A stretch of 64,000 nucleotides of DNA from NCBI GenBank assembly GCA_018825365.1, contig JAHJEV010000003.1, positions 317,387 through 381,386 of the forward strand. Reading direction: 5' to 3'. The position numbers were made by a program, and so were the translations under genes. Origin of the DNA: Patescibacteria group bacterium (GTDB lineage: Bacteria > Patescibacteriota > WWE3 > UBA101185 > UBA10185). The notes beneath the pieces were generated by a model, which was not told the DNA's origin, searched no databases, and saw nothing but the letters and a program-made list of their open reading frames with translations. The stretch's first letter is position 1, and each line of letters begins with the position of its first letter. Of this stretch, positions 14,330-44,662 are shown one piece after another.

Positions 14330-16882
14330 TCAGATGCTCTTTCCATGACAATTCTTGTATTTTTTCCCACTTCCACAAGGACAGGGGTCGTTTCTTCCAA
14401 CCTTCTCTTTCCCAGATTCGATTTTCTCTATCTTTATTTCCCTCCCGGTTTCATCCACTAATTTCTGTTGGGATATTTCCTGACCCTCCTGCGAAACTCC
14501 TGTTTCCAGTTCCCCGTGTTTATAAGATAATCTCCCCTCACGTATTTTTTTCTCTTCCCTCATACCTACAGCCTCACTACTTACCGCCAGCAGCCTTTCG
14601 CCAACCATCGAGTAAACTTTAGAAACTAAAATTTCAAACCTTTCATGGCCTTCTCTTTTGTATTCAACCATCGGATCTCTTTGAGCGTAGCCTCTAAGAC
14701 CTATTCCTTCTCTTACCTGGTCCATGTCAACCAGGTGATCCATCCAAAGGTAATCTATAACCGGTCTGCTAAATGCACTTACAATTTGAAGCCAGATTTC
14801 TTTTCCAAATTCTTTTTCTTTTTTCTCCCATGTTTCAAAACTAAAATCAGAAAATTTCCCTAGTTGTTTAACCAACCACTGCTTGTTTTCCTCGTTCCCC
14901 TCGCCCATTTCAAGAATTCTTCTTCTTAGTTTATAAATAACTTCTCGATGGGTATTCATAATATCGTCCATCTCAACAAGCTGTTTTCTTCTGTCAAAGT
15001 TAAAACCCTCAACCCTTTTTTGGGCATTTTCTATCGCTTTTGAAACAACGCCGGCCTCAAGAGGCACGCTCTCATCCAGACCAAATTTTTCCATAATCCC
15101 GGAGACCCTATCCCCACCAAAGATTCGCATAAGGTCATCCTGCAAAGATACAAAGAATTTTGATCTTCCGGGATCTCCCTGACGACCGGACCTGCCTCTT
15201 AATTGGTTATCGATTCTTCTTGATTCATGCCTTTCAGTACCAATTACGTAAAGACCTCCGGACTCCAAAACTTTCTTTTGATCCTCGGGATTTTGGGGAT
15301 CCCCTCCAAGAAGAATGTCTACTCCTCGCCCCGCCATGTTTGTGGAAATAGTTACTGCTCCCGGTCTTCCTGCCTGAGCTATAATCAAAGCCTCTCTTTC
15401 ATGATTTTTTGCATTTAAAATTTCGTGCTGAATTCCCCTTCTTTGCAAGAAGTTATGAAGTAACTCACTCTTATCAACAGACGTGGTACCAACAAGTACG
15501 GGCTGCATAATTTTGTAACTTGCTGCTATTTCATCAGCCACAGCCTTGAACTTTCCTGCCTCTGTTTTATAAACGACATCGTTCTCATCTTTTCTTATAC
15601 ATGTGTTATTTGGCGGAATTGCAACTACATCTAATTTATAGATCTTGAAAAACTCTTCCGATTCGGTAACGGCAGTGCCAGTCATACCAGAAAGTTTCTT
15701 GTACATTCTAAAATAGTTTTGGTAAGAAATTTCAGCTAGAGTTTTTGATTCCTGCTGGATTGTTACACCCTCTTTGGCTTCGATTGCCTGGTGAAGACCG
15801 TATGAAAATCTATTGTTAGTTAAAAGTCTTCCGGTGAACTGATCAACAATAACAACGGCCTCATTTTTTACAACATAATCTCTGTCTTTCTCATACAAAG
15901 TGTTTGCGGCCAAAGCTTGTTCGATAAGGTGTACCATTTCAAAATCCTGTTCATACAAATTGTCTATTCCCAAAAGCCTTTCAACTCTTCGTATGCCCAA
16001 ATCGGTTAACGTTACATTCTTAAACTTCTCCTCCATCTCAAAGTCAGTGTCTTTTATCAGGGATTTTATAATGGCATTCGATTGATGGTATCTTTCACTT
16101 GGTTTAGCGTCCGCAGCGGAGATAATAAGTGGGGTCCTGGCAACATCTATTAATATAGAGTCGACTTCGTCAACTATCGCATAATTATGAACTCCCCAAT
16201 CTCCATTAGGATTTGTTTGGACCATGTCATCCAATCGAGCAACCATGTTATCTCTTAGATAATCAAATCCAAACTCATGATTAGTTCCATAAATTACATC
16301 GCACTTGTAAGCTTCTTGTCTCGGAACTTCTCTCAGATGAACTGCGTAGGCATCCTCAAATTCGGTGCCGTTGTACGTCGGATCAAAAACAAAGGCTCTT
16401 TCCTGCATTATTACTCCAACAGACACACCTAAGTAACCATAAACTGAACCCATCCAACCCGCACCGTGCCTTGCAAGATAATCATTGGGTGTAATAAGTG
16501 TAACTCCTTTTCCAGTAAGAGAATTTAAATATAAAGGAAGGGTTGCGGTTAGGGTTTTTCCCTCACCTGTTTTTTGCTCTGCAATCTTTCCCTGATGAAG
16601 GACAATACCAGCCATAAGCTGGACATCAAAATGCCTCTGACCCAAGGATCTCACAGCTGACTCACGGCCCAATGCGAAAACTTCGGGGAGAATTTCGTTA
16701 AGATACCTCTCTTTATCGCCATCGCTTAATTTTTTAAGTTCCGATCTGAAGTAGTTTGTCTTATCTTTTATTTCTTGCGCGGACAGCTTTTTAACCTGTT
16801 CTTCAAGATTATTTATCTGATAAACAATTGGGATTATTTTCTTAAGCTGTTTTTCATTTGTATCAAAAAGTTTGCCGAACAT
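14330..16882 (-). CDS. secA: Preprotein translocase ATPase SecA
   Basis: 850 aa; DEAD-like motor motifs; C-terminal zinc-binding CPCGSGKKYKNCHG tail. Confidence 0.95.
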   Translation of the reverse strand: MFGKLFDTNEKQLKKIIPIVYQINNLEEQVKKLSAQEIKDKTNYFRSELKKLSDGDKERYLNEILPEVFALGRESAVRSLGQRHFDVQLMAGIVLHQGKIAEQKTGEGKTLTATLPLYLNSLTGKGVTLITPNDYLARHGAGWMGSVYGYLGVSVGVIMQERAFVFDPTYNGTEFEDAYAVHLREVPRQEAYKCDVIYGTNHEFGFDYLRDNMVARLDDMVQTNPNGDWGVHNYAIVDEVDSILIDVARTPLIISAADAKPSERYHQSNAIIKSLIKDTDFEMEEKFKNVTLTDLGIRRVERLLGIDNLYEQDFEMVHLIEQALAANTLYEKDRDYVVKNEAVVIVDQFTGRLLTNNRFSYGLHQAIEAKEGVTIQQESKTLAEISYQNYFRMYKKLSGMTGTAVTESEEFFKIYKLDVVAIPPNNTCIRKDENDVVYKTEAGKFKAVADEIAASYKIMQPVLVGTTSVDKSELLHNFLQRRGIQHEILNAKNHEREALIIAQAGRPGAVTISTNMAGRGVDILLGGDPQNPEDQKKVLESGGLYVIGTERHESRRIDNQLRGRSGRQGDPGRSKFFVSLQDDLMRIFGGDRVSGIMEKFGLDESVPLEAGVVSKAIENAQKRVEGFNFDRRKQLVEMDDIMNTHREVIYKLRRRILEMGEGNEENKQWLVKQLGKFSDFSFETWEKKEKEFGKEIWLQIVSAFSRPVIDYLWMDHLVDMDQVREGIGLRGYAQRDPMVEYKREGHERFEILVSKVYSMVGERLLAVSSEAVGMREEKKIREGRLSYKHGELETGVSQEGQEISQQKLVDETGREIKIEKIESGKEKVGRNDPCPCGSGKKYKNCHGKSI

Positions 16883-18480: not shown

Positions 18481-19830
18481 TTACTTTTTCGGAAGTATCC
18501 TCTTAAACCCGCTATATTTCTGCAAAGCTTTAGGAATATTAACAGATCCGTCTTTTTGTTGATGGTTTTCCAAAATCGCAATAATTATTCTACCAAATGC
18601 GGCTCCTGTATCATTGACGGTTCTTGCAAGTTTTGTCCCGTTACCATCTTTATACTTAATATTTAGCCTCCTCGCTTGGTAGTCAGTTGTCATTGTATCT
18701 GTTCCGACTTCCATATATTCCTTTTCTTTAGGTCTCCAAGCCTCAACATCGTACTGAAAGTATGATGCGTTATAACCGCAGTCCCCAGTACATTTGTTAA
18801 CAACTCTATAAGGAATTTCCAGCTTTTGGAAAAGCCACTCGTTTATTTCCATAAACTCATCAAAAACTTCTCTTTCCTGTTCTTCTGTACACACACAATT
18901 CATCTCAAGCTTGTCGAACTGATGAACTCTTTTTATCCCCCTAACATCCTTGCCCCAAGAACCAACCTCGCTCCTAAAACAGGTTGTTTGGGCGTATATC
19001 TTTATCGGGAGCTCTTCTTTTTTCAAAACCTTATCCATGAAATAGGAAAAATTAGAGGGCTCGGCAGAACCTACCAAAAACAAACTACTTCCCTCTTCAA
19101 CATTCTCGTTTTTTACTTCGTAAACCTGAGACCTTCCCTCCGGAAAGTGGCTTGTTCCAAAAAGAGATCTTTCCTTAACGAGAAGCGGAGGAACCATAGG
19201 AATAAATTTTCTTCTTAAAAGTTCCTTCTTTAATAACGAGGAGATCGCGTCTTGAAGAACAGTCGCTTCGTTTTTCAAATAACAAAACCTACTTCCGGAG
19301 ACTTTCCCGCTTTGCTCAACATCAATAATATCTAGCTTTTCGCCTATCTCTATGTGATCTTTATAAGGAAATTCCTCCCCGGGGGCATAAGACACATCAT
19401 CATATGGCAGCGAATCCTTCATTTTCAGATAGCCCTTCCTTGGATTCCAAACCTTAACGATAAGGTTATCGTGTTCGTCTTTTCCAACGGGCATTTCTTT
19501 TGAAACAACGTTAGGAATAAGAGGCAACATTTCATCAATTTCTTTTCTTAATTCATCCAGCTCTTTTTCCATATCGGAAAGTTCTGTTTTCATCTCTGTA
19601 GCTTTGGAAATCAGTCCCCCTTTTTCGGATTCTTTAGCCTTTGAAATATCCAAGGATATGTTATTTCGAAGATTTCTTAAAGTCTCAACCTTCTTTAAAA
19701 CATCGATGTATTTCTCGTGAATTTCCAGTAACTTCTCGACATCAACACCTTTAGCCTTCCTGCTTACGATCACTTTTTTTACTTCGTCCTTGTTTTGTTT
19801 AATATAGTTTATGTCTAGCATCCTATTCAT
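18481..19830 (-). CDS. serS: Seryl-tRNA synthetase
   Basis: 449 aa; N-terminal coiled-coil arm and class II core motifs typical of SerS. Confidence 0.9.
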   Translation of the reverse strand: MNRMLDINYIKQNKDEVKKVIVSRKAKGVDVEKLLEIHEKYIDVLKKVETLRNLRNNISLDISKAKESEKGGLISKATEMKTELSDMEKELDELRKEIDEMLPLIPNVVSKEMPVGKDEHDNLIVKVWNPRKGYLKMKDSLPYDDVSYAPGEEFPYKDHIEIGEKLDIIDVEQSGKVSGSRFCYLKNEATVLQDAISSLLKKELLRRKFIPMVPPLLVKERSLFGTSHFPEGRSQVYEVKNENVEEGSSLFLVGSAEPSNFSYFMDKVLKKEELPIKIYAQTTCFRSEVGSWGKDVRGIKRVHQFDKLEMNCVCTEEQEREVFDEFMEINEWLFQKLEIPYRVVNKCTGDCGYNASYFQYDVEAWRPKEKEYMEVGTDTMTTDYQARRLNIKYKDGNGTKLARTVNDTGAAFGRIIIAILENHQQKDGSVNIPKALQKYSGFKRILPKK

Positions 19831-39177: not shown

Positions 39178-40389
39178 TTACTCTTTGTCCGCAACTTGTT
39201 TTGCAGCGGCAGTTTCATCAGATTTAGAAGCCTCTTCTTCTGCTGGTTCCTCTATTGGTTCTTCCGTCTTTTCCATTGCGGCTTCGACTGCGGCCTTCTC
39301 TTCGGCTTTAGCTTGCTTTTTTACTTCCTCAGCATCATTGAATTTCTTTATTTCAGCATCCCAGACTCCGACAACCTTGTCACTTGTCGATTCCCTAACC
39401 GAGCCACCTTGTACAGCATCGCTTGAAAATACACCAGCAATTCCCTTAATATCGATCTTCCATTTAGTAAGTTTATTAGCTAATCTTGCGTTTTGGCCTT
39501 CTTTTCCGATTGCCAAGCTTTGCTGATCTTCAGGAACAGTAACTGTTGCTCTCTTCTCTGCCTGATCAAGCTCAACTTCTGATACTTTTGCGGGTGACAA
39601 ACTGGAAGCAACAAATTTTTCGGTGTTGTTTGAAAATGGAACAATGTCAATCTTTTCTCCAAAAAGCTCTGAAATTATTGACTGAACTCTTACACCTTTT
39701 TGTCCCACACAGCTTCCAACCGGATCAACCTTTTCATCTTTTGAAGAAACGGCCATTTTAGTCCTGGAACCGGCCTCTCTTGCTATTGCTTCTATAACGA
39801 CAACTCCGGAGGCAATTTCAGGAACTTCCTGCTCAAAAAGTCTCACAATAAATTTTGGATCTGCCCTTGATACGATTATCTCAGTTCCCCTCGGAGTATC
39901 TTGAATATCTTTAACCAAAACCTTAAGTCTCTGATTCATTCTGTAATTTTCGGCAGGAACCTGCTCGCCTCTTGGCATCACACCCTGGCTTCTGTTTTTG
40001 CCCATATCCAAGGTTATAATTCCCTTTTCCATTCTAAATACTATTCCAGTTACTATCTGACCTATTTTTTCTTTAAATTCCGCCGTGACAACGTCCTTTT
40101 CTGTTTCTCTGATCTTTTGAACCATTACTTGTTTAGCAGTTTGGGCCGCTATTCTTCCAAAACCGGACGGAGTTACGTCCATTCCGTCTTTTAATATTCT
40201 TACCTCACCTGTATCGGGGTTTAGATCCACAATAATTTCCTCAAGTTCAACTACTTCTCCAATTTCTTTTCTATCTTTTTTATATGCTGTAGCTAAAGCT
40301 GATTTAACCGATTCAAGAACACTTTCTACAGTTATTCCTTTTTCGGCTGCAACCTGACTTATCGCTGCATTAAATTCTGACATTGCCAT
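39178..40389 (-). CDS. nusA: Transcription termination/antitermination factor NusA with acidic C-terminal tail
   Basis: 403 aa; S1 and tandem KH domains; C-terminal Glu/Ala/Lys-rich tail. Confidence 0.9.
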   Translation of the reverse strand: MAMSEFNAAISQVAAEKGITVESVLESVKSALATAYKKDRKEIGEVVELEEIIVDLNPDTGEVRILKDGMDVTPSGFGRIAAQTAKQVMVQKIRETEKDVVTAEFKEKIGQIVTGIVFRMEKGIITLDMGKNRSQGVMPRGEQVPAENYRMNQRLKVLVKDIQDTPRGTEIIVSRADPKFIVRLFEQEVPEIASGVVVIEAIAREAGSRTKMAVSSKDEKVDPVGSCVGQKGVRVQSIISELFGEKIDIVPFSNNTEKFVASSLSPAKVSEVELDQAEKRATVTVPEDQQSLAIGKEGQNARLANKLTKWKIDIKGIAGVFSSDAVQGGSVRESTSDKVVGVWDAEIKKFNDAEEVKKQAKAEEKAAVEAAMEKTEEPIEEPAEEEASKSDETAAAKQVADKE

Positions 40390-40430
40390 ATTTTTCTACT
40401 CCTAAAACTTATAAACGTTGTAGTAAATTA

Positions 40431-40456
40431 TTAAAAAAAGTGGGACCGGCCCACTT
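40431..40456 (-). terminator. Rho-independent terminator-like hairpin downstream of the DGR reverse transcriptase
   Basis: On the minus strand, gcaagtgggccggtcccac forms a GC-rich hairpin followed by TTTTTTT; it lies between the RT stop (40579) and the nusA start. Confidence 0.45.
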
Positions 40457-40578
40457 GCAACAACTTTATTTCTTTACTACTTCGTTAACTTCTTACAACA
40501 ATAGGATACTATACCCTTGACAAAGCGGGGTCAACTAGCGGTATTTTGCTGACTTAGATCCTTTTTTCTTATCCGGGC

Positions 40579-41571
40579 TTATAAGTGAGATACTAACCTT
40601 GCAACCTCTTGTCGCAATCTATAAGTATTCCCATGAGAAATAAGCCCCAAATAAGATTGAGTGGTCTCCTTGTCACCGCCCTTATACACAATATTTCTAA
40701 ACATCCGCCTTTTAGTAGATGTCCTTAAAATTCTGCGATCGGGAAAGTGCACCCAACCGAGAAAGTCAATCCCAGACGCTACTGTTCTTAGCAGAGTTTT
40801 GTCTTCGTGAAGTTCCAAACGAAGGATTTCCCATAGAAATTCTTTGATCATGGGTAAAAGTCCTGCAAGTTCATTCTTATCGTGTGACATAAAAACAAAA
40901 TCATCTGCATAACGGAGATAAAACTTTACTTTCAAAACATGCTTAACGAATATATCAAATTTATTCATATAAATATTTGCAAAAAGCTGAGATGTGAGAT
41001 TTCCCAAAGGAATGCCTTTATTACCACCCGGGTCAAAACTATTAATAACCTCAGAAAGAACCCAAATAAGATTGTCATCTAAAATCGACTCTCTAAGCAT
41101 GCCAATAAGAATATCGTGGTCTATCGATGCAAAAAACTTCTTTATGTCACACTTTAGAACCCAGACGGTTTTTGTATTATTTTTTGAAACCTTAAAAGAA
41201 AACTTACAAAATCTATTAAGTGCGGCATGTAAACCTTTATCTATGCGACAGGAATAAGAATCAGCTATAAATTTTCTATCAAAGAATAGATAAAGTGTTC
41301 TATACAAAGCGTGGTGAAATAATCTATCCCTAACGGTAGCTTTATGAATAACTCTTGGCTTTGGATCGGAGATTTTAAATACCGTATATTTTGAGTGCTT
41401 ATAACTTTTGGTTTCCAAATCTTCATGTAGCTGAAGTATGTTTCCCATTAAGTTGCGTTCAAAAACCTGTACATCTTTTCTTGAACGCTTGCCATTCCTA
41501 AATTCCTTCCAAGCGACAAGAAGATTATCAAGAGAAATGATATCCTGATATTTATGAGTGAATTTAATCAT
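40579..41571 (-). CDS. Diversity-generating retroelement (DGR) reverse transcriptase
   Basis: 330 aa; RT motifs 1-2 (RVIHKATVRDRLFHHALYRTL, SYSCRIDKGLHAAL), the DGR-specific motif-4 variant LGNLTSQLFANIYMNKFD ([ILV]GxxxSQ rather than the group II QGxxxSP), and YLRYADDFVFMSHD; no maturase or endonuclease domains; adjacent TR/VR pair. Confidence 0.85.
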   Translation of the reverse strand: MIKFTHKYQDIISLDNLLVAWKEFRNGKRSRKDVQVFERNLMGNILQLHEDLETKSYKHSKYTVFKISDPKPRVIHKATVRDRLFHHALYRTLYLFFDRKFIADSYSCRIDKGLHAALNRFCKFSFKVSKNNTKTVWVLKCDIKKFFASIDHDILIGMLRESILDDNLIWVLSEVINSFDPGGNKGIPLGNLTSQLFANIYMNKFDIFVKHVLKVKFYLRYADDFVFMSHDKNELAGLLPMIKEFLWEILRLELHEDKTLLRTVASGIDFLGWVHFPDRRILRTSTKRRMFRNIVYKGGDKETTQSYLGLISHGNTYRLRQEVARLVSHL

Positions 41572-41657
41572 AAGTACATTACCCCCCCCCAGTCCAGCCC
41601 TCGTCTAAAAGTAACACGAATCTGTTACCGATAATAAAGCATGCTAAAGACATCTAT

Positions 41658-41978
41658 TTGGTGTGGTTTGGATATTTTCAAAAGCTTCCCAAAATACATA
41701 GGTATACTCTTGGACTCAGAATTGATAATTTGTTTGTAGAAATTATCGAAAACCTATCTTCCGCAAGCTTTTCAAAATCCTTAGAAAAACAAGACTTTAT
41801 AAATCTAACAATAAGAAAAAATGATACATTAAAAATTCTTGTGATGGTTCTTTGGGAGACAAAATCCATTGATGACAAAAAATATATTCTCCTGTCTGAA
41901 CAGTTGGATAAAATAGGTAAAATGCTCGGTGGCTGGATGTTACATTTGCAAAAACAAAACTCTCCCGGCAAAAGCTAG
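41658..41978 (+). CDS. avd: Avd-like accessory variability determinant (four-helix-bundle / 23S-IVS protein family), encoded antisense to RT and target
   Basis: 106 aa from a TTG start; the C-terminus LSEQLDKIGKMLGGWMLHLQKQ resembles the Avd/IVS family C-terminal helix (recalled BPP-1 Avd ...AEVGRILGSWIARVNRK); it lies between the TR and the RT. Confidence 0.6.
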   Translation: MVWFGYFQKLPKIHRYTLGLRIDNLFVEIIENLSSASFSKSLEKQDFINLTIRKNDTLKILVMVLWETKSIDDKKYILLSEQLDKIGKMLGGWMLHLQKQNSPGKS

Positions 41979-41997
41979 GAGAGAAATGAGAGGACTG

Positions 41998-42123
41998 GCG
42001 ACGAACAAAAACGAAGCGGTTGTTAGCATTCCAGAAGTTGTCGGGCTTACCATAGTAAGCGTAAAGCCAACGATCATCGTCATTGCGCTTGACGTCGAAT
42101 AGGTTCAGATCACCATCGGAGTC
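41998..42123 (-). repeat. DGR template repeat (TR), 126 nt, intergenic
   Basis: Identical to 42479..42604 at 114/126 positions (offset 481). On the coding (minus) strand the TR carries A at 11 of the 12 mismatch positions. In the VR reading frame the TR reads DSDGDLNLFDVKRNDDDRWLYAYYGKPDNFWNANNRFVFVRR, rich in AAC/AAT codons. Confidence 0.85.
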
Positions 42124-42356
42124 GTTACGTACAAAGTACCTTCTATACCACCACTTTTTGATTGCTCTTAAAGTTGAATCTTATTTGTGAACTAAATTCC
42201 CCCGGTACTCTGCACCAAGTATCCTCATTTTTTAAAGTTTAATACACCACTCTAACTTAAACCGTAATTTAAATTATTCCGGGTGTACGGACACTGGATT
42301 CGGTAGCAAAAACCTTAGTTGTTTGCGTATTCACCTAATACCAGTCTTATTTTAAC

Positions 42357-42403
42357 AAAAAAACTCCGTGCTTTGGTATAGAAAACCCAAAAACACGGAG
42401 TTT
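42357..42403 (-). terminator. Hairpin plus T-run downstream of the DGR target gene; either a terminator or a DGR-associated stem-loop
   Basis: Minus strand: stem aaactccgtg / cacggagttt with an inner tttgg/ccaaa pairing, followed by TTTTTTT; about 70 nt 3' of the target stop codon and between the VR and the TR. Confidence 0.4.
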
Positions 42404-42472
42404 GAAAGAGAAAGCTCAAAGTACAAAGACCAAAAGTTCAAGATCCAAGTGACCTAAGTTCAAAGAGCCAAA

Positions 42473-42973
42473 TTACTTGCGACGAACAAAAACGAAGCGG
42501 TAGCTAGCACTCCAGAAGCTGTCGGGCCCACCATCGCAAGCGTAAAGCCAACGATCATCGTCATAGCGCCTGACGCCGAATAGGTACAGATCACCATCGG
42601 AGTCTTTGATAGGCTTCATGGCAAAGATTAGAACCTCTCCCGGTTTCAGATCGTCGCCACGCTGCAGCAGATACTGTGCGGCTGCTTCATCCGGACACAA
42701 ATCCCAATCTTTTTCGCCGCCGGCTCTGTAGATGTCTCTTAACTCCGTACCGCGTGAAAATCCCAGCTCTTCAACAGAGGCATCCACTAAATCCAAGGTT
42801 TGTCTGGATTTGGTTACCTTTATCTTGCTGAGAATGTCTTCCGCCCAACCTGAAATCCATACACCGGATTCCTCCAAAGCCCTTCTCAGGGACTTTGCAT
42901 CCTTGTAAGTGCCAATTTCAACGATCCCAAGGGTATTCATGACTCCATCCTTTCTTTGCCTTAATCTAGGCAT
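42473..42973 (-). CDS. DGR target (variable) protein; small, no signal peptide, C-terminal VR
   Basis: 166 aa; the last ~42 residues (DSDGDLYLFGVRRYDDDRWLYACDGGPDSFWSASYRFVFVRRK) are encoded by the VR; the gene is visibly more G+C-rich than its neighbours. Confidence 0.8.
   Translation of the reverse strand: MPRLRQRKDGVMNTLGIVEIGTYKDAKSLRRALEESGVWISGWAEDILSKIKVTKSRQTLDLVDASVEELGFSRGTELRDIYRAGGEKDWDLCPDEAAAQYLLQRGDDLKPGEVLIFAMKPIKDSDGDLYLFGVRRYDDDRWLYACDGGPDSFWSASYRFVFVRRK
42479..42604 (-). repeat. DGR variable repeat (VR), ending 3 nt before the target stop codon
   Basis: Cognate of the TR 41998..42123. Mismatches (TR>VR, plus strand) at TR 42021 t>a, 42023 t>c, 42029 t>c, 42038 t>c, 42047 t>c, 42048 t>c, 42054 a>c, 42056 t>c, 42084 t>a, 42089 t>c, 42095 t>c, 42105 t>a. 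Confidence 0.85.
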
Positions 42974-43046
42974 AACAGTGGATAAGTGCCGTCATTATAC
43001 TATAGGTGGGTTAATATGGCAATGGGGATTTTTTCCTCTTGGGACT

Positions 43047-43970
43047 TTATTCCTCAAGATACTTTTCCAGTAACTCCCTTTGTTTTTTGTTTAATCTTTC
43101 GGGTATTTTCACCAGTATCTGAACAATAACGTTACCCTGTCCCCTACCGTGAATCTTGGGCATTCCTTTTCCTCTTATTTGAAATCGAGCCCCGTATTGA
43201 GTCCCTCCAGGTATTTTAAGCTTCGCCCTTCCGACACCACTTTCAACCGATGTATCAACAACAGGAACCTCAAGTACAATCCCTAAAGCAGCATCTACCA
43301 TTTTTATTTCTTTTGAAACCAAAACATCATCCCCCATAATTACGAAATCTGGCACATTTCTAAGTCTCAAGGTTAAAAATAAATCACCACTTGGAGCCCC
43401 CTGAGGACCCGGCATTCCTTTTCCGGCAAACTTTATTTCCATCCCATCTCTCATTCCTGCGGGGATTTTCACTTTTACTTTTCCGCTTTCAACATTTATT
43501 TCTTTTTCAACACCAAAAATTGCATCCTTAAAATCTATATGCATTTCGTAATAAAGGTTTTTGCCTTTTCTTGGGCGTCTTGAAGAAAATCCCCTAAACC
43601 CAAAAGCTTCTTCAAAAATGTCAAATGGATTAAAATCAGATCCCATGTCAAATGGGTTTCCGCCTGAGGATGAGTATGTGTATGTAAATGGTCCCCACTG
43701 GCCGCGATTAGCTCCAGAGAATCCTTCCGGACCAAATCCCGGACCAGAAGTGCCAAACTGATCGTACATATTTCTCTTTTGGGGGTCACTTAATACTTGG
43801 TAAGCTTCGTTTATTTCCTTAAATCTTTTCTCTGCGGAGGCTTTGTCACTTTCTTTGACCATATCCGGGTGGTGCTCTCTTGCGAGTCTTCTATATGCCT
43901 TTTTTATGTCCTCTGCTGAGGCATTTTTGGCCACTCCTAATATTTCGTAGTAATTTTTTGCCGTTGTCAT
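43047..43970 (-). CDS. DnaJ-class co-chaperone, type II/CbpA-like (J-domain, G/F region, no zinc finger)
   Basis: 307 aa; J-domain YYEILGVAKNASAEDIKKAYRRLAREHHPD; Gly/Phe-rich linker; C-terminal substrate-binding domains; no CxxCxGxG repeats. Confidence 0.8.
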   Translation of the reverse strand: MTTAKNYYEILGVAKNASAEDIKKAYRRLAREHHPDMVKESDKASAEKRFKEINEAYQVLSDPQKRNMYDQFGTSGPGFGPEGFSGANRGQWGPFTYTYSSSGGNPFDMGSDFNPFDIFEEAFGFRGFSSRRPRKGKNLYYEMHIDFKDAIFGVEKEINVESGKVKVKIPAGMRDGMEIKFAGKGMPGPQGAPSGDLFLTLRLRNVPDFVIMGDDVLVSKEIKMVDAALGIVLEVPVVDTSVESGVGRAKLKIPGGTQYGARFQIRGKGMPKIHGRGQGNVIVQILVKIPERLNKKQRELLEKYLEE

Positions 43971-43989: not shown

Positions 43990-44662
43990 TATTAAATACT
44001 CAGGAAATGACGTCCTCCCCGCATTGCACATGAGTACATGTTTATACGGGGTTTCCTTTGCTCTGCAACTCATGATAACAAGGAAGTGGCATCTTCTCCA
44101 AGGTCTTGTTTGCCTTGGTATGCTATGTACTTAAGTATCTTCTCCTCGTTTAAGCCTACGGTTGAAACATAGTACCCTATACCCCATATCCCACTTTTCT
44201 CACCAAAGATTCTGTCGATGAATTTAAAGTGCTTTCTTAAATCCTTGCTTGTCTGTATCTTTATTTTCTGAACAACCTCGGCTACAGAGTATTTGGGTGG
44301 TATCTCAATTAGCATATGTATATGATCAATGTTTGTATTGATCTTATGTATATACCAAGTGGGATATGTTCTTTGAAGTTTATGGATTGATTTTATCAAC
44401 TCAACTAAAACGTAGTTTTTAAGTATCTTTCTTCTATACTTTACTCCCCATACCAAGTGATACTGTATCTCATACACACTATGACTTAACATCCTTGTTC
44501 TCATGTTTACAGCATATCACTTCATGATATGCCCATTCGTCCATGCATTGCGTTCGCAATTCCTATCCCCTCGCTCACTTATGCATGGTTTCCTGTATGG
44601 AAACAACGAAAGATCCCCGTATAAAACGGGGATCTTTGACTGTACAAGTCTTGTACACTTCA
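43990..44662 (-). mobile_element. IS200/IS605-family insertion sequence (tnpA-only) with subterminal hairpins; boundaries approximate
   Basis: Y1 transposase ORF flanked by same-strand imperfect palindromes: gatccccgtataaaacggggatc (44612..44634), tgtacaagtcttgtaca (44641..44657), ggtttcctgtatggaaac on the 5' side, and ccccgcattgcacatgagtacatgtttatacgggg (44017..44051) on the 3' side. It fills the entire dnaJ-like/hup intergenic space. Confidence 0.65.
44070..44504 (-). CDS. tnpA: IS200-like Y1 (HuH) transposase TnpA
   Basis: 144 aa; HuH motif DHIHMLIEIPP and a catalytic-Tyr region KILKYIAYQ; size and sequence typical of IS200/IS605 TnpA. Confidence 0.85.
   Translation of the reverse strand: MRTRMLSHSVYEIQYHLVWGVKYRRKILKNYVLVELIKSIHKLQRTYPTWYIHKINTNIDHIHMLIEIPPKYSVAEVVQKIKIQTSKDLRKHFKFIDRIFGEKSGIWGIGYYVSTVGLNEEKILKYIAYQGKQDLGEDATSLLS

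What the first reader, a model, noticed from the sequence alone, without database searches (positions are those of the whole stretch)
41998..42604. TR/VR pair shows adenine-specific divergence and an AAY-rich template
Of 12 TR/VR mismatches, 11 have A in the TR on the coding (minus) strand and G/T/C in the VR. The affected TR codons are aac, gac, aag, aat, tac, aag, aac, aat, aac and aac. The corresponding residue changes are N>Y, D>G, K>R, N>Y, Y>C, K>G, N>S, N>S, N>S and N>Y. TR codons with A in the first or second position (AAC/AAT/AAG) are the classic design that maximises amino-acid diversity while avoiding stop codons. The single exception is TR 42054 a versus VR 42535 c on the plus strand, a T>G change on the coding strand (tat>gat). 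This could be a rare non-A misincorporation or ordinary drift.
Basis: seen in the sequence. Interest (0 to 1): 0.85.

Follow-up and report, generated by a model that had tools for sequence, protein, structure and literature searches.

The report
Diversity-generating retroelement in a Patescibacteria genome
The repeat pair is the template and variable region of a diversity-generating retroelement, a reverse-transcriptase system that rewrites the tip of one small binding protein; it is a typical member of the type already known from candidate-phyla-radiation bacteria, but its relatives show some unreported RNA features and one recurrent non-adenine mutation site.

Summary
TR 41998-42123 and VR 42479-42604 (minus strand, 126 nt) differ at 12 sites. 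Eleven are TR adenines (11 of 28 A versus 1 of 98 non-A, P=1e-7). All 12 changes alter the protein.

The VR is the last 42 codons of a 166-aa ORF. The TR has no start codon. A bRT-like reverse transcriptase lies downstream. An Avd gene lies between TR and RT on the opposite strand. This is the TR-(avd)-RT "B3" layout reported for about 90% of CPR DGRs.

Thirty-six related TR/VR pairs show the same layout and adenine bias. TR and VR co-vary at non-A sites between lineages.

The target has no Pfam family. Its confident model resembles C-type lectin/FGE folds only weakly.

The single exception (42054/42535) is a recurrent hot spot: 6 of 20 relatives with T at that TR position show T>G or T>C. Other positions that vary between A and non-A show none.

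Family-wide extras:
- a covarying ~225-nt structured leader 5' of the TR, absent from Rfam
- a hairpin plus U-run 14 nt after the TR
- CTTTGA-like repeats after the VR

Verdict: a real DGR and a new member of a known kind, with mechanistic leads.

The parts
42473..42973 (-). Target (variable protein) gene, 166 aa. A better ribosome-binding site precedes Met12, so the true start may be 42940. No Pfam or NCBIfam family. The predicted fold is distantly C-type-lectin/FGE-like.
42479..42604 (-). Variable region (VR): codons 124-165, ending one codon before the stop.
   Evidence: Across homologs, hypervariable columns coincide with TR A-containing codons.
42994..43022 (-). Sigma-70-like promoter of the target gene (TTGCCA-17-TATAAT, 11 of 12 matches).
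   Evidence: This is a consensus match only.
42414..42465 (-). Array of about 6 CTTTGA-like units spaced 7-9 nt, directly after the target stop codon. Function unknown. It may mark the retrohoming target or serve as a 3'-UTR element.
   Evidence: The pattern occurs 148 times in 37 loci against 17.7+-4.3 in shuffles. CTTTGA occurs at 15.9/kb here against 0.4/kb in the leader.
42357..42403 (-). Intrinsic-terminator-like hairpin (AAACUCCGUG...CACGGAGUUU plus a U7 run) ending the target transcript.
   Evidence: Sequence. Equivalent hairpin/T-runs appear in relatives.
42349..42357 (-). Extended -10 element TGnTAAAAT, the inferred promoter of the TR RNA.
   Evidence: Conserved as TGnTAnAAT/TATACT at the same place across loci. 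Its role as a promoter is inferred.
42124..42340 (-). Structured leader RNA 5' of the TR.
- H1: 42326-42306
- H2/H3: 42288-42242
- A-rich strand 42231-42222, which pairs with the post-TR linker
- invariant CUUGGU: 42219-42214
- H4: a 12-bp duplex, 42215-42204 with 42140-42129, ending 5 nt before the TR
- H5 stem-loop: 42199-42189
- A-rich single strand: 42188-42175
- H6: 42174-42153
   Evidence: RNAalifold: 37 of 44 pairs have compensatory changes. Cells paired 92.4% against about 46% when slid; covariation 0.69 against 0.13-0.19. nt identity to L001 is 96.9%, against 93% for NusA and 85% for the TR. A covariance model of the 3' domain gives a single hit in the window (E 1.3e-22), which matches by construction because the window sequence was in the model's alignment. 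In 375 kb of loci left out of the model's alignment it gives 4 hits, each abutting a TR; two of these (L027, L046) had already been seen to carry the leader in alignment A4. No Rfam match.
41998..42123 (-). Template region (TR): 28 A, 27 of them in codon positions 1-2. There is no start codon between the upstream in-frame stop (42181-42183) and the TR.
42054..42054 (-). TR position 70 (T on the coding strand), paired with VR 42535 (G). This is the non-adenine exception and a family-wide hot spot.
41984..41997 (-). 14-nt pyrimidine-rich linker after the TR. It is complementary to leader strand 42231-42222.
   Evidence: helix 5, 77% paired, with compensatory changes; cognate duplexes -6.7 against non-cognate -4.6 kcal/mol, permutation p<2e-4.
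41950..41983 (-). Hairpin (CUCUCC...GGGAGAG) plus a U-run immediately after the linker. It overlaps the avd stop codon on the other strand. It is inferred to be the 3' end of the TR RNA, an Avd-binding stem-loop, or both.
   Evidence: Present at the same distance in 37 of 37 loci, with widely covarying stems.
41658..41978 (+). avd (accessory variability determinant), 106 aa. It is encoded on the strand opposite to the target, TR and RT.
   Evidence: Pfam PF22296 bAvd E 4.6e-10 (40.4 bits, cut-off 40). NCBIfam NF033474 DivGenRetAVD E 2.6e-15 (56.6 bits, below the cut-off of 80). Same orientation in all 44 related loci where Avd was detected.
40579..41571 (-). DGR reverse transcriptase, 330 aa, with the LGNLTSQ and YADD motifs.
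   Evidence: RVT_1 E 1e-20. Best solved relative is 8ub7_A, taken to be Bordetella phage bRT from its residue numbering (E 2.7e-41), against 6.5e-15 for the best group II intron RT. Equivalents of R74, D138, Q187 and D215/D216 are conserved, and I181 is L.

Best explanation
This is a chromosomal diversity-generating retroelement (DGR) of a Patescibacteria (CPR) bacterium, inserted between dnaJ and nusA.

Proposed mechanism:
1. A non-coding RNA containing the TR is transcribed from its own extended -10 promoter.
2. The RT, together with Avd, reverse-transcribes the TR and misincorporates opposite template adenines.
3. The cDNA replaces the homologous VR. This rewrites up to 20 A-containing codons (about 8e15 possible peptides) on the binding face of a small, apparently cytoplasmic, C-type-lectin-like protein.

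What is shown directly:
- the adenine-specific TR/VR pattern
- the gene content and layout
- concerted TR/VR evolution between lineages
- a conserved structured RNA around the TR

What is inferred:
- Transcription units.
- The leader supplies the priming strand. It pairs with the linker just 3' of the TR, so that extension runs into the TR.
- The leader also supplies a stop duplex (H4) just 5' of the TR. The RNA would then be a circularly permuted version of the Bordetella phage DGR RNA.
- The element is currently active.
For: - Adenine bias: 11 of 12 mismatches are at TR adenines, P=1e-7, all non-synonymous. 97 of 98 non-A sites are identical.
- RT: closest to Bordetella bRT, with catalytic and fidelity-related residues conserved.
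- Avd: detected by Pfam and NCBIfam.
- TR: lacks a start codon and runs antisense into avd.
- Relatives: 36 independent related TR/VR pairs share the same layout. 663 of 725 mismatches are at TR-A. The non-A rate is 0.43% in clean pairs.
- Spectrum: A>G 58%, A>T 25%, A>C 17%. This resembles the in-cell bRT profile, where dC misincorporation is 59% (PMC12875486).
- Concerted evolution: at all 11 non-A sites where the window TR and the L001 TR differ, each VR follows its own TR. The flanking NusA and DnaJ are 93-97% identical.
- Recent activity in a relative: L035 and L094 share an identical TR but differ at 15 VR sites.
- Architecture: TR-(avd)-RT is the B3 type, 90% of the CPR DGR set (PMC5758913). 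Roux et al. describe a CPR-restricted DGR clade whose targets lack recognisable domains (PMC8144416).
- RNA elements.
Against: - There is no direct evidence that this particular copy is active. No reads or population data were available, and only one VR state is known for this TR.
- The NCBIfam Avd score is below its cut-off.
- The canonical IMH/IMH* difference and the GC-rich hairpin directly after the VR are absent. TR and VR are identical up to the last repeat base, and the nearest hairpin is a terminator about 75 nt downstream.
- One mismatch is at a non-adenine.
- The RNA priming model is inferred from secondary structure and from the text of a preprint. It was not tested.
Confidence: 0.93

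Rival explanations
1. A decayed or domesticated DGR that no longer retrohomes. The TR/VR differences would be a fossil of past activity.
For: Only one VR state is known for this TR (a cluster of 1). Some relatives are clearly decaying, with many non-A mismatches (L002/L083, L059, L061/L065). One non-A mismatch is present here.
Against: 97 of 98 non-A sites are still identical, although the TR itself has diverged 15% from the nearest relative. VR and TR changed in concert after that split. The RT, Avd, TR, leader and hairpin are all intact. The leader is under stronger constraint than the housekeeping genes.
Confidence: 0.2
2. An ordinary duplicated gene fragment (paralog or pseudogene) diverging by drift or gene conversion, with no reverse transcription.
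For: A 126-nt direct repeat lies 481 nt apart. The TR reading frame is open for 128 codons stop-to-stop.
Against: Drift would not place 11 of 12 changes on one base of one copy (P=1e-7). No start codon precedes the TR. Only the last 42 codons are duplicated. The same bias holds in 36 other loci, always next to an RT and Avd.
Confidence: 0.01
3. The exception at 42054/42535 arose because the TR mutated A>T after the VR was last rewritten. That is TR drift at a site that was an adenine.
For: 14 of 34 clean TRs carry A at this position. These include the closest relatives, L001 and L005, which have AAC. G is the commonest product of A-mutagenesis in this family.
Against: Many other positions vary between A and non-A across the family (34, 38, 40, 47, 50, 64, 65, 74, 89, 100, 107 and others; about 340 non-A cells). 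They show a single mismatch (position 88), whereas position 70 shows 6 of 20. The six cases are in lineages whose TRs differ by 23-58 nt, so they are independent. None of the six VRs retains A at this position. About half of the non-T outcomes would be expected to retain A (P about 0.02).
Confidence: 0.15
4. The exception reflects a site-specific non-adenine event. One possibility is context-dependent misincorporation by this RT lineage at U70 of the TR RNA. The other is strong selection enriching rare non-A errors at the central binding-site codon 147.
For: 6 of 20 clean pairs whose TR has T at position 70 show the mismatch (5 T>G, 1 T>C), this window among them; by codon, 5 of 12 TAY and 1 of 8 TGG. 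The background is 0.23% at other non-A sites, P about 9e-12. Sister loci with identical TRs show G at position 70 in one and a G>T at position 73 in the other.
Against: The Bordetella enzyme errs at non-A bases only 0-0.5% of the time (PMC6182149). T>G needs an unusual rU:dC mispair. The neighbouring TAC codon (position 67) shows 0 of 8. All sequences are MAG or metagenome consensus.
Confidence: 0.5

Closest known systems
CPR/Patescibacteria DGRs: 'B3' architecture TR-(avd)-RT of Wu et al. 2018 (PMC5758913); 'DGR clade 2' of Roux et al. 2021 (PMC8144416)
   Same: The gene order and the inverted avd are the same. The element is chromosomal in a CPR genome. The target is small, has no recognisable domain or membrane anchor, and carries a C-terminal VR. 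The template is rich in AAY codons.
   Different: Nothing in the core element differs. In the papers I could read I did not find this target family named. I also did not find the roughly 225-nt structured leader, the post-VR CTTTGA array or the position-70 hot spot described. Paul et al. 2017 and the supplements of Wu et al. were not available.
Bordetella phage BPP-1 DGR (mtd-VR, avd, TR, Sp, brt)
   Same: - The RT is its closest solved relative (E 2.7e-41), with equivalents of R74, D138, Q187 and D215/216.
- An Avd partner is present.
- Substitutions are adenine-specific and fall in a C-terminal VR of a CLec-type protein.
- A stem-loop lies just 3' of the TR.
- A duplex lies just 5' of the TR, followed on its partner strand by a short stem-loop and adenosines. 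This resembles the 'cPRT Stop' (preprint 10.1101/2023.10.23.563531).
   Different: - Here avd is on the opposite strand and sits between TR and RT.
- The structured cis RNA lies 5' of the TR instead of in a 140-nt 3' spacer.
- The RNA appears to end at a hairpin/U-run 14 nt after the TR.
- There is no IMH/IMH* difference inside the repeat and no hairpin directly after the VR.
- The host is a bacterial chromosome rather than a phage.
- The target is a 166-aa stand-alone protein rather than a tail fibre.
DGR variable proteins with a C-type lectin fold (Mtd 1yu0, TvpA 2y3c, and formylglycine-generating-enzyme-type domains)
   Same: All top structural neighbours of the model belong to this fold class. 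The variable residues sit in the C-terminal strands and loops.
Retrons
   Same: Both have a bacterial RT that copies part of a dedicated structured non-coding RNA, cis-primed from a 2'-OH.
   Different: There is no msd/msr inverted-repeat organisation and no effector gene. The RT matches retron families only weakly. The product is targeted to a homologous gene segment.

Membership tests
Diversity-generating retroelement (DGR) | A template/variable repeat pair whose differences fall almost only at template adenines | tested here: met
   11 of 12 mismatches are at TR-A: 11/28 A against 1/98 non-A, P=1.1e-7.
Diversity-generating retroelement (DGR) | The VR lies inside a protein-coding target gene, usually at its 3' end. 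The TR is not part of a translated gene. | tested here: met
   The VR is codons 124-165 of a 166-codon ORF. The TR has no in-frame start after the upstream stop. No minus-strand ORF of 50 aa or more covers it.
Diversity-generating retroelement (DGR) | An adjacent reverse transcriptase of the DGR clade, with motif-4 [I/L/V]GxxxSQ and YxDD | tested here: met
   RVT_1. LGNLTSQ and YADD are in the translation. The best PDB relative is Bordetella bRT at E 2.7e-41, against 6.5e-15 for group II RTs. No formal phylogeny was made.
Diversity-generating retroelement (DGR) | The accessory protein Avd. It is common but not universal. | tested here: met
   PF22296 bAvd scores 40.4 bits, just above the cut-off of 40. 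NF033474 scores 56.6 bits, E 2.6e-15, below the curated cut-off of 80. Its position is conserved next to the TR and RT in 44 loci.
Diversity-generating retroelement (DGR) | IMH at the VR 3' end that differs from IMH* in the TR, plus a GC-rich inverted repeat just downstream of the VR | tested here: not met
   TR and VR are identical over the last 22 nt and diverge abruptly after the repeat. The nearest hairpin is a terminator about 75 nt downstream. Wu et al. report identical IMH/IMH* in some DGRs and inverted repeats in only 34%, so this feature is not obligatory.
Diversity-generating retroelement (DGR) | The VR turns over among strains while the TR stays constant, and TR and VR evolve in concert at non-A sites | tested here: met
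   Shown in relatives, not in this strain. L035 and L094 have an identical TR and 15 VR differences. In the window-L001 comparison, VR follows its own TR at 11 of 11 non-A TR differences.
Diversity-generating retroelement (DGR) | Demonstrated adenine-mutagenic cDNA synthesis and retrohoming | not testable with these tools
   This needs biochemistry or read-level population data.
CPR 'B3' DGR architecture (Wu et al. 2018) | Core order TR - avd on the reverse strand - RT, with the target upstream | tested here: met
   The order on the minus strand is target, VR, TR, avd (+ strand), RT. The same order holds in all related loci with the components present. The definition comes from PMC5758913.
C-type lectin-fold DGR variable proteins | The target adopts the CLec/FGE-type fold with the VR forming the binding surface | tested here: inconclusive
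Bordetella-type DGR RNA (TR flanked by cis elements: Avd-binding stem-loop, template:primer duplex, cPRT Stop) | A stem-loop just 3' of the TR. A duplex abutting the 5' end of the TR, with an adjacent short stem-loop followed by adenosines. A strand pairing at or next to the TR 3' end. | tested here: inconclusive
   All three kinds of element exist and covary. However, they sit in a different linear order: the partner strands lie 5' of the TR. Equivalence to the Bordetella elements is inferred from a preprint's description. It was not tested.

The most novel reading that the evidence does not exclude
In this Patescibacteria DGR lineage the cis-acting DGR RNA may be a circular permutation of the Bordetella phage DGR RNA.

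- The priming strand, the stop duplex with its stem-loop and adenosines, and further protein-binding hairpins would lie in a roughly 225-nt leader 5' of the TR.
- The RNA would end at a hairpin/U-run right after the TR.
- This arrangement would free the downstream DNA for an inverted avd.

Separately, the RT or selection produces a reproducible non-adenine (U70>G) substitution hot spot. That would mean DGR diversification here is not strictly adenine-limited.
Probability: 0.35. Interest if true: 0.65.

Novelty: new member of a known kind. Interest (0 to 1): 0.4.

Why it matters
As a DGR it adds one more instance to a class already catalogued in thousands of CPR genomes, so the element itself is not surprising.

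Its value is as a compact, well-replicated comparative system. About 40 related cassettes define the following, base by base:
- a target family of at least 2645 unnamed proteins
- a strongly covarying RNA scaffold placed on the other side of the template from the only DGR RNA whose structure is known
- a conserved repeat array at the retrohoming target
- a specific non-adenine hot spot

Each of these gives DGR biochemists a concrete, testable prediction about how priming, termination, target recognition and fidelity work outside the Bordetella phage model.

Tried and rejected
- **Paralog or pseudogene reading.** Rejected: there is no start codon, only 42 codons are duplicated, and the bias is adenine-specific.
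- **Adenine deaminase-type mutator.** Rejected: 3 of 11 changes here are A>T, and A>T plus A>C make up 42% in the family.
- **Second target or second TR in the window.** None found.
- **Remote target in the same MAG as L083 (L084).** The match to the L083 TR is poor and not adenine-clean, so this was dropped.
- **Rfam.** No match in 40400-43100 at E up to 1.
- **TRF on the post-VR array.** Nothing reported, because the units are too short and degenerate. Motif counting was used instead.
- **afdb50 fold library.** Unavailable.
- **Covariance model of the full leader.** A 123-position model of the 3' domain was used instead.
- **Paul et al. 2017 (PMC5436926) and the supplements of Wu et al.** Not held. 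I could therefore not check whether this VR class is one of their 'UVR' groups.
- **Viral collection.** One distant homolog without RT, Avd or TR (L110). There is no sign the cassette is phage-borne.
- **Generic TR drift as the cause of the position-70 mismatch.** Disfavoured by the control over other positions that vary between A and non-A.
Full report
**Observation**

The window holds one ungapped direct repeat with offset 481: 41998-42123 and 42479-42604. Read on the minus strand, the two copies differ at 12 of 126 positions.

- At 11 positions the 41998-42123 copy has A and the other copy has G (8) or T (3).
- The twelfth is T versus G (plus-strand 42054 A / 42535 C).
- The A-bearing copy has 28 A. 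The split is 11/28 against 1/98, P = 1.1e-7.
All 12 are non-synonymous.
- 27 of the 28 adenines are in codon positions 1-2.

One detail needs correcting. AAG (codons 135 and 149) can mutate to TAG, so only the AAY codons are stop-safe.

**Anatomy, read 5'>3' on the minus strand**

1. A sigma-70-like promoter (43022-42994).
2. A 166-codon ORF, 42973-42473, whose last 42 codons before Lys-stop are the VR.
3. An array of CTTTGA-like units (42465-42414).
4. A terminator-like hairpin with a U7 run (42403-42357).
5. An extended -10 element TGTTAAAAT (42357-42349).
6. A leader of about 225 nt.
7. The TR (42123-41998).
8. A 14-nt pyrimidine-rich linker.
9. A hairpin plus U-run (41983-41950).
10. A 106-aa Avd gene on the opposite strand (41658-41978).
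11. A 330-aa reverse transcriptase (41571-40579).

The neighbours are nusA, infB, dnaJ, an IS200-type transposase, ymdB and rny. There are no tRNAs. The target protein is identical to a hypothetical protein of a Patescibacteria MAG on a 460-kb contig. The element is therefore chromosomal in a CPR bacterium.

**Is the TR a translated paralog?**

No. In the VR-equivalent frame the TR is open, but there is no ATG, GTG or TTG between the upstream stop (42183-42181) and the TR. Only the last 42 codons are duplicated. The frame then runs antisense through avd.

**RT and Avd**

The RT's best solved relative is chain 8ub7_A (E 2.7e-41). Its residue numbering (D138, I181, Q187, D215/216, R74) matches the Bordetella phage bRT as described in preprint 10.1101/2023.10.23.563531. 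Group II intron RTs score 6.5e-15.

The window RT keeps the equivalents of R74, D138, Q187 and the YxDD aspartates. It has Leu at the I181 position and carries the DGR-typical LGNLTSQ motif.

Avd passes Pfam's bAvd threshold narrowly. It matches NCBIfam's DGR Avd model at E 2.6e-15, but below its curated cut-off.

**Comparative evidence**

The target family has at least 2645 members at E no higher than 1e-5. All are unnamed and without Pfam domains. Those that carry a source name are labelled Patescibacteria, WWE3 or other CPR groups. In the alignment, variation is concentrated at the columns that correspond to A-containing TR codons.

Scans of metagenome and genome contigs gave 108 loci.

- Wherever Avd was detectable (44 loci) it lies between target and RT on the opposite strand.
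- 36 non-redundant loci have a TR 385-590 nt downstream of the VR.
- In these, 663 of 725 mismatches are at TR adenines: A>G 385, A>T 165, A>C 113.
- In the 34 clean pairs (33 of these relatives plus the window pair), only 13 of 3004 interior non-A sites differ.
- The spectrum (58% A>G) resembles the in-cell profile of bRT, where dC misincorporation is 59% (PMC12875486).

Two results speak for recent information flow.

- L035 and L094 have identical TRs but differ at 15 VR sites.
- Between the window and its nearest relative L001, the TRs differ at 19 sites. At all 11 of those that are non-A in both, each VR follows its own TR. NusA and DnaJ are 93-97% identical in protein, and the insertion site is the same.

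**The exception at TR position 70**

In the family this position is T in 20 clean TRs (the window among them) and A in 14.

Six of the 20 T-bearing TRs show a VR mismatch exactly here:

| Locus | Codon change |
|---|---|
| window | TAT>GAT |
| L086 | TAT>GAT |
| L037 | TAC>GAC |
| L094 | TAT>GGT |
| L064 | TGG>GGG |
| L036 | TAT>CAT |

The six TRs differ from one another by 23-58 nt and their VRs are unrelated at A-sites. The events are therefore independent.

Against the background rate at other non-A sites (0.23%), 6 of about 20 (the test was run as 6 of 21) gives P about 9e-12.

The obvious explanation is that the TR recently changed A>T and the VR still carries an old A-derived G. That predicts similar mismatches at the many other positions that vary between A and non-A in the family. 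About 340 such cells show a single mismatch, at position 88. It also predicts that some VRs would retain A at position 70, and none does.

I therefore regard position 70 as a genuine non-adenine hot spot of unresolved cause. The cause is either context-specific misincorporation or selection enriching rare errors at a central binding-site codon. In BPP-1, non-A errors run at 0-0.5% (PMC6182149).

**Target protein**

There is no Pfam, NCBIfam or PDB sequence match for the core.

- An AlphaFold model built on 56 homologs is confident: pLDDT 93.8, pTM 0.88.
- Foldseek gives only weak CTLD hits.

This fits Roux et al.'s expectation that uncharacterised CPR targets are new C-Lec variants lacking membrane anchors. 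I rate fold membership as inconclusive.

**RNA elements**

Among the seven closest cassettes, the roughly 235 nt before the TR are about 95% or more identical, although their TRs differ by 12-23%. Against L001 the leader is 96.9% identical. That is more than nusA (93%), the TR (85%) or the RT (82%).

Across 36 loci RNAalifold predicts six helices. 37 of 44 pairs have compensatory changes.

Counted on the alignment, 92.4% of cells pair against about 46% when partners are slid. Covariation is 0.69 against 0.13-0.19. No shuffle reached the observed values.

Key features:
- **H4** is a 12-bp duplex whose 3' strand ends 5 nt before the TR.
- **Right after the H4 5' strand** come a short covarying stem-loop (H5) and a conserved A-rich single strand (CAAAUAA...).
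- **Six nt before H4** an A-rich strand (42231-42222) is complementary to the linker just 3' of the TR. 77% of cells pair, with compensatory changes. Cognate duplexes average -6.7 against -4.6 kcal/mol for non-cognate ones, permutation p<2e-4.
- **After the linker** all 37 loci have a hairpin with widely covarying stems followed by a U-run.

A covariance model of the 3' leader domain found one hit in the 64-kb window, which is expected because the window sequence was in the model's alignment. In 375 kb of loci left out of the model's alignment it found four hits, each ending at a TR, and none in TR-less loci. Two of the four (L027, L046) had been set aside only for length and were already known from alignment A4 to carry the leader; L056 and L107 were new. 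Rfam has no match.

**How it most likely works**

The core is shown by pattern and homology. TR RNA is copied by RT/Avd with adenine-specific errors, and the product replaces the VR.

The RNA mechanics are inferred. In BPP-1 one continuous RNA strand (Sp) pairs first with the TR 3' end, forming the template:primer duplex. Two nucleotides later it pairs with the sequence just 5' of the TR. That second pairing forms the cPRT Stop duplex, which is followed by a short stem-loop, A-minor adenosines, a single-stranded 'thumb ring' and a bRT-binding stem-loop. An Avd-binding stem-loop sits just 3' of the TR.

The window's RNA has the same cyclic order of elements:

stop strand > TR > template strand (linker) > stem-loop > [ends] > primer-like strand > stop strand > stem-loop > adenosines > stem-loop

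The 5'/3' ends fall after the post-TR stem-loop instead of before the stop strand. I therefore propose a circularly permuted DGR RNA ending at the hairpin/U-run.

This would also explain why avd can occupy the space between TR and RT in reverse orientation. A-mutagenesis reaches at least TR position 115, and probably position 126, in a relative (L064). That is consistent with priming in the linker.

This model is a hypothesis, which I put at about 0.35. Handa et al. report that CPR DGRs have post-TR stem-loops and upstream-downstream duplexes, so part of it may already be recognised.

**Comparison and novelty**

The element meets the defining features of a DGR that could be tested. It does not have the IMH/IMH* difference or the VR-adjacent GC hairpin, neither of which is obligatory. 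It matches the B3 architecture that accounts for 90% of CPR DGRs.

It is therefore a new member of a known kind.

In the literature available to me I did not find the following described:
- the family-wide structured leader
- the CTTTGA array after the VR
- the position-70 hot spot

**Caveats**

- All sequences are MAG or metagenome consensus.
- Activity of this copy is inferred.
- Relatedness among loci inflates shuffle-based statistics, although the slid-partner and non-cognate controls argue against that as the sole cause.

Noticed in passing
window 42414-42465 (minus strand); equivalent positions in L001-L108: Directly after the target stop codon, every DGR-linked family member has 4-8 CTTTGA-like units spaced 7-8 nt apart or in multiples of that. 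The pattern occurs 148 times against 17.7+-4.3 in shuffles. More distant TR-less homologs mostly lack the array. Its function is unknown. It may be a recognition element for retrohoming or a 3'-UTR protein-binding array.
   Followed up: partly
L085 3903-4400, L009 12-500, L040 4001-4520: In these loci the target-like ORF runs straight into the post-TR linker, hairpin and avd, with no spacer and no separate TR. In L085 the C-terminus (P0011) is VR-like in its first half and Asn-rich (TR-like) in its second half. This is either a VR/TR recombination deletion or an assembly collapse of the repeat.
   Followed up: partly
L002/L083, L059, L061/L065: These TR/VR pairs have many non-adenine mismatches (8-18), concentrated towards the 3' end. 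They look like decaying cassettes, or VRs served by another TR.
   Followed up: no
alignment A2, profile positions 30-89 (N-terminal extension absent from the window protein): Most homologs are about 200 aa long, with an extra N-terminal segment (…WLRGLNKFLRKENPW…). Together with the first helices, this segment matches designed alphaRep/HEAT-repeat proteins at E 5e-11. The window protein and L001 lack this extension.
   Followed up: no
window 39178-43970 versus L001 and L005: The cassette sits between dnaJ and nusA in three genomes whose NusA and DnaJ are 93-97% identical. Their target proteins are nevertheless only 85% and 55% identical, and their RTs 83-90%. The cassette evolves much faster than its flanks or is exchanged. 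The TR (85% nt) diverges faster than the leader (97%).
   Followed up: partly
window 44070-44504 (minus strand): An IS200-type Y1 transposase gene (PF01797, E 1.8e-27) lies one gene away from the DGR, beyond dnaJ.
   Followed up: no
window 42306-42326 and 42253-42276 (leader helices H1 and H3): Both apical regions carry a similar GG(U/C)UA(C/A)GG(U/C)UU motif that is conserved across the family. This could be a repeated protein-binding site.
   Followed up: no
L110 4001-4453 (IMG/VR contig): A distant homolog (29% identity) of the target fold lies on a putative viral contig with no RT, Avd or TR nearby. The fold family therefore also exists outside DGR cassettes.
   Followed up: partly
L035 VR position 73 (its sister locus L094 has the identical TR): A second non-adenine change (G>T, GAC>TGC) lies three bases from the position-70 hot spot, in the sister locus of one that carries T>G at position 70. 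This suggests a local cluster of non-A changes at codons 147-148.
   Followed up: no
window 15037-15076 and 19497-19536: A two-copy 40-nt direct repeat at 73% identity, 4460 nt apart. It is probably conserved motifs of paralogous genes or chance.
   Followed up: no
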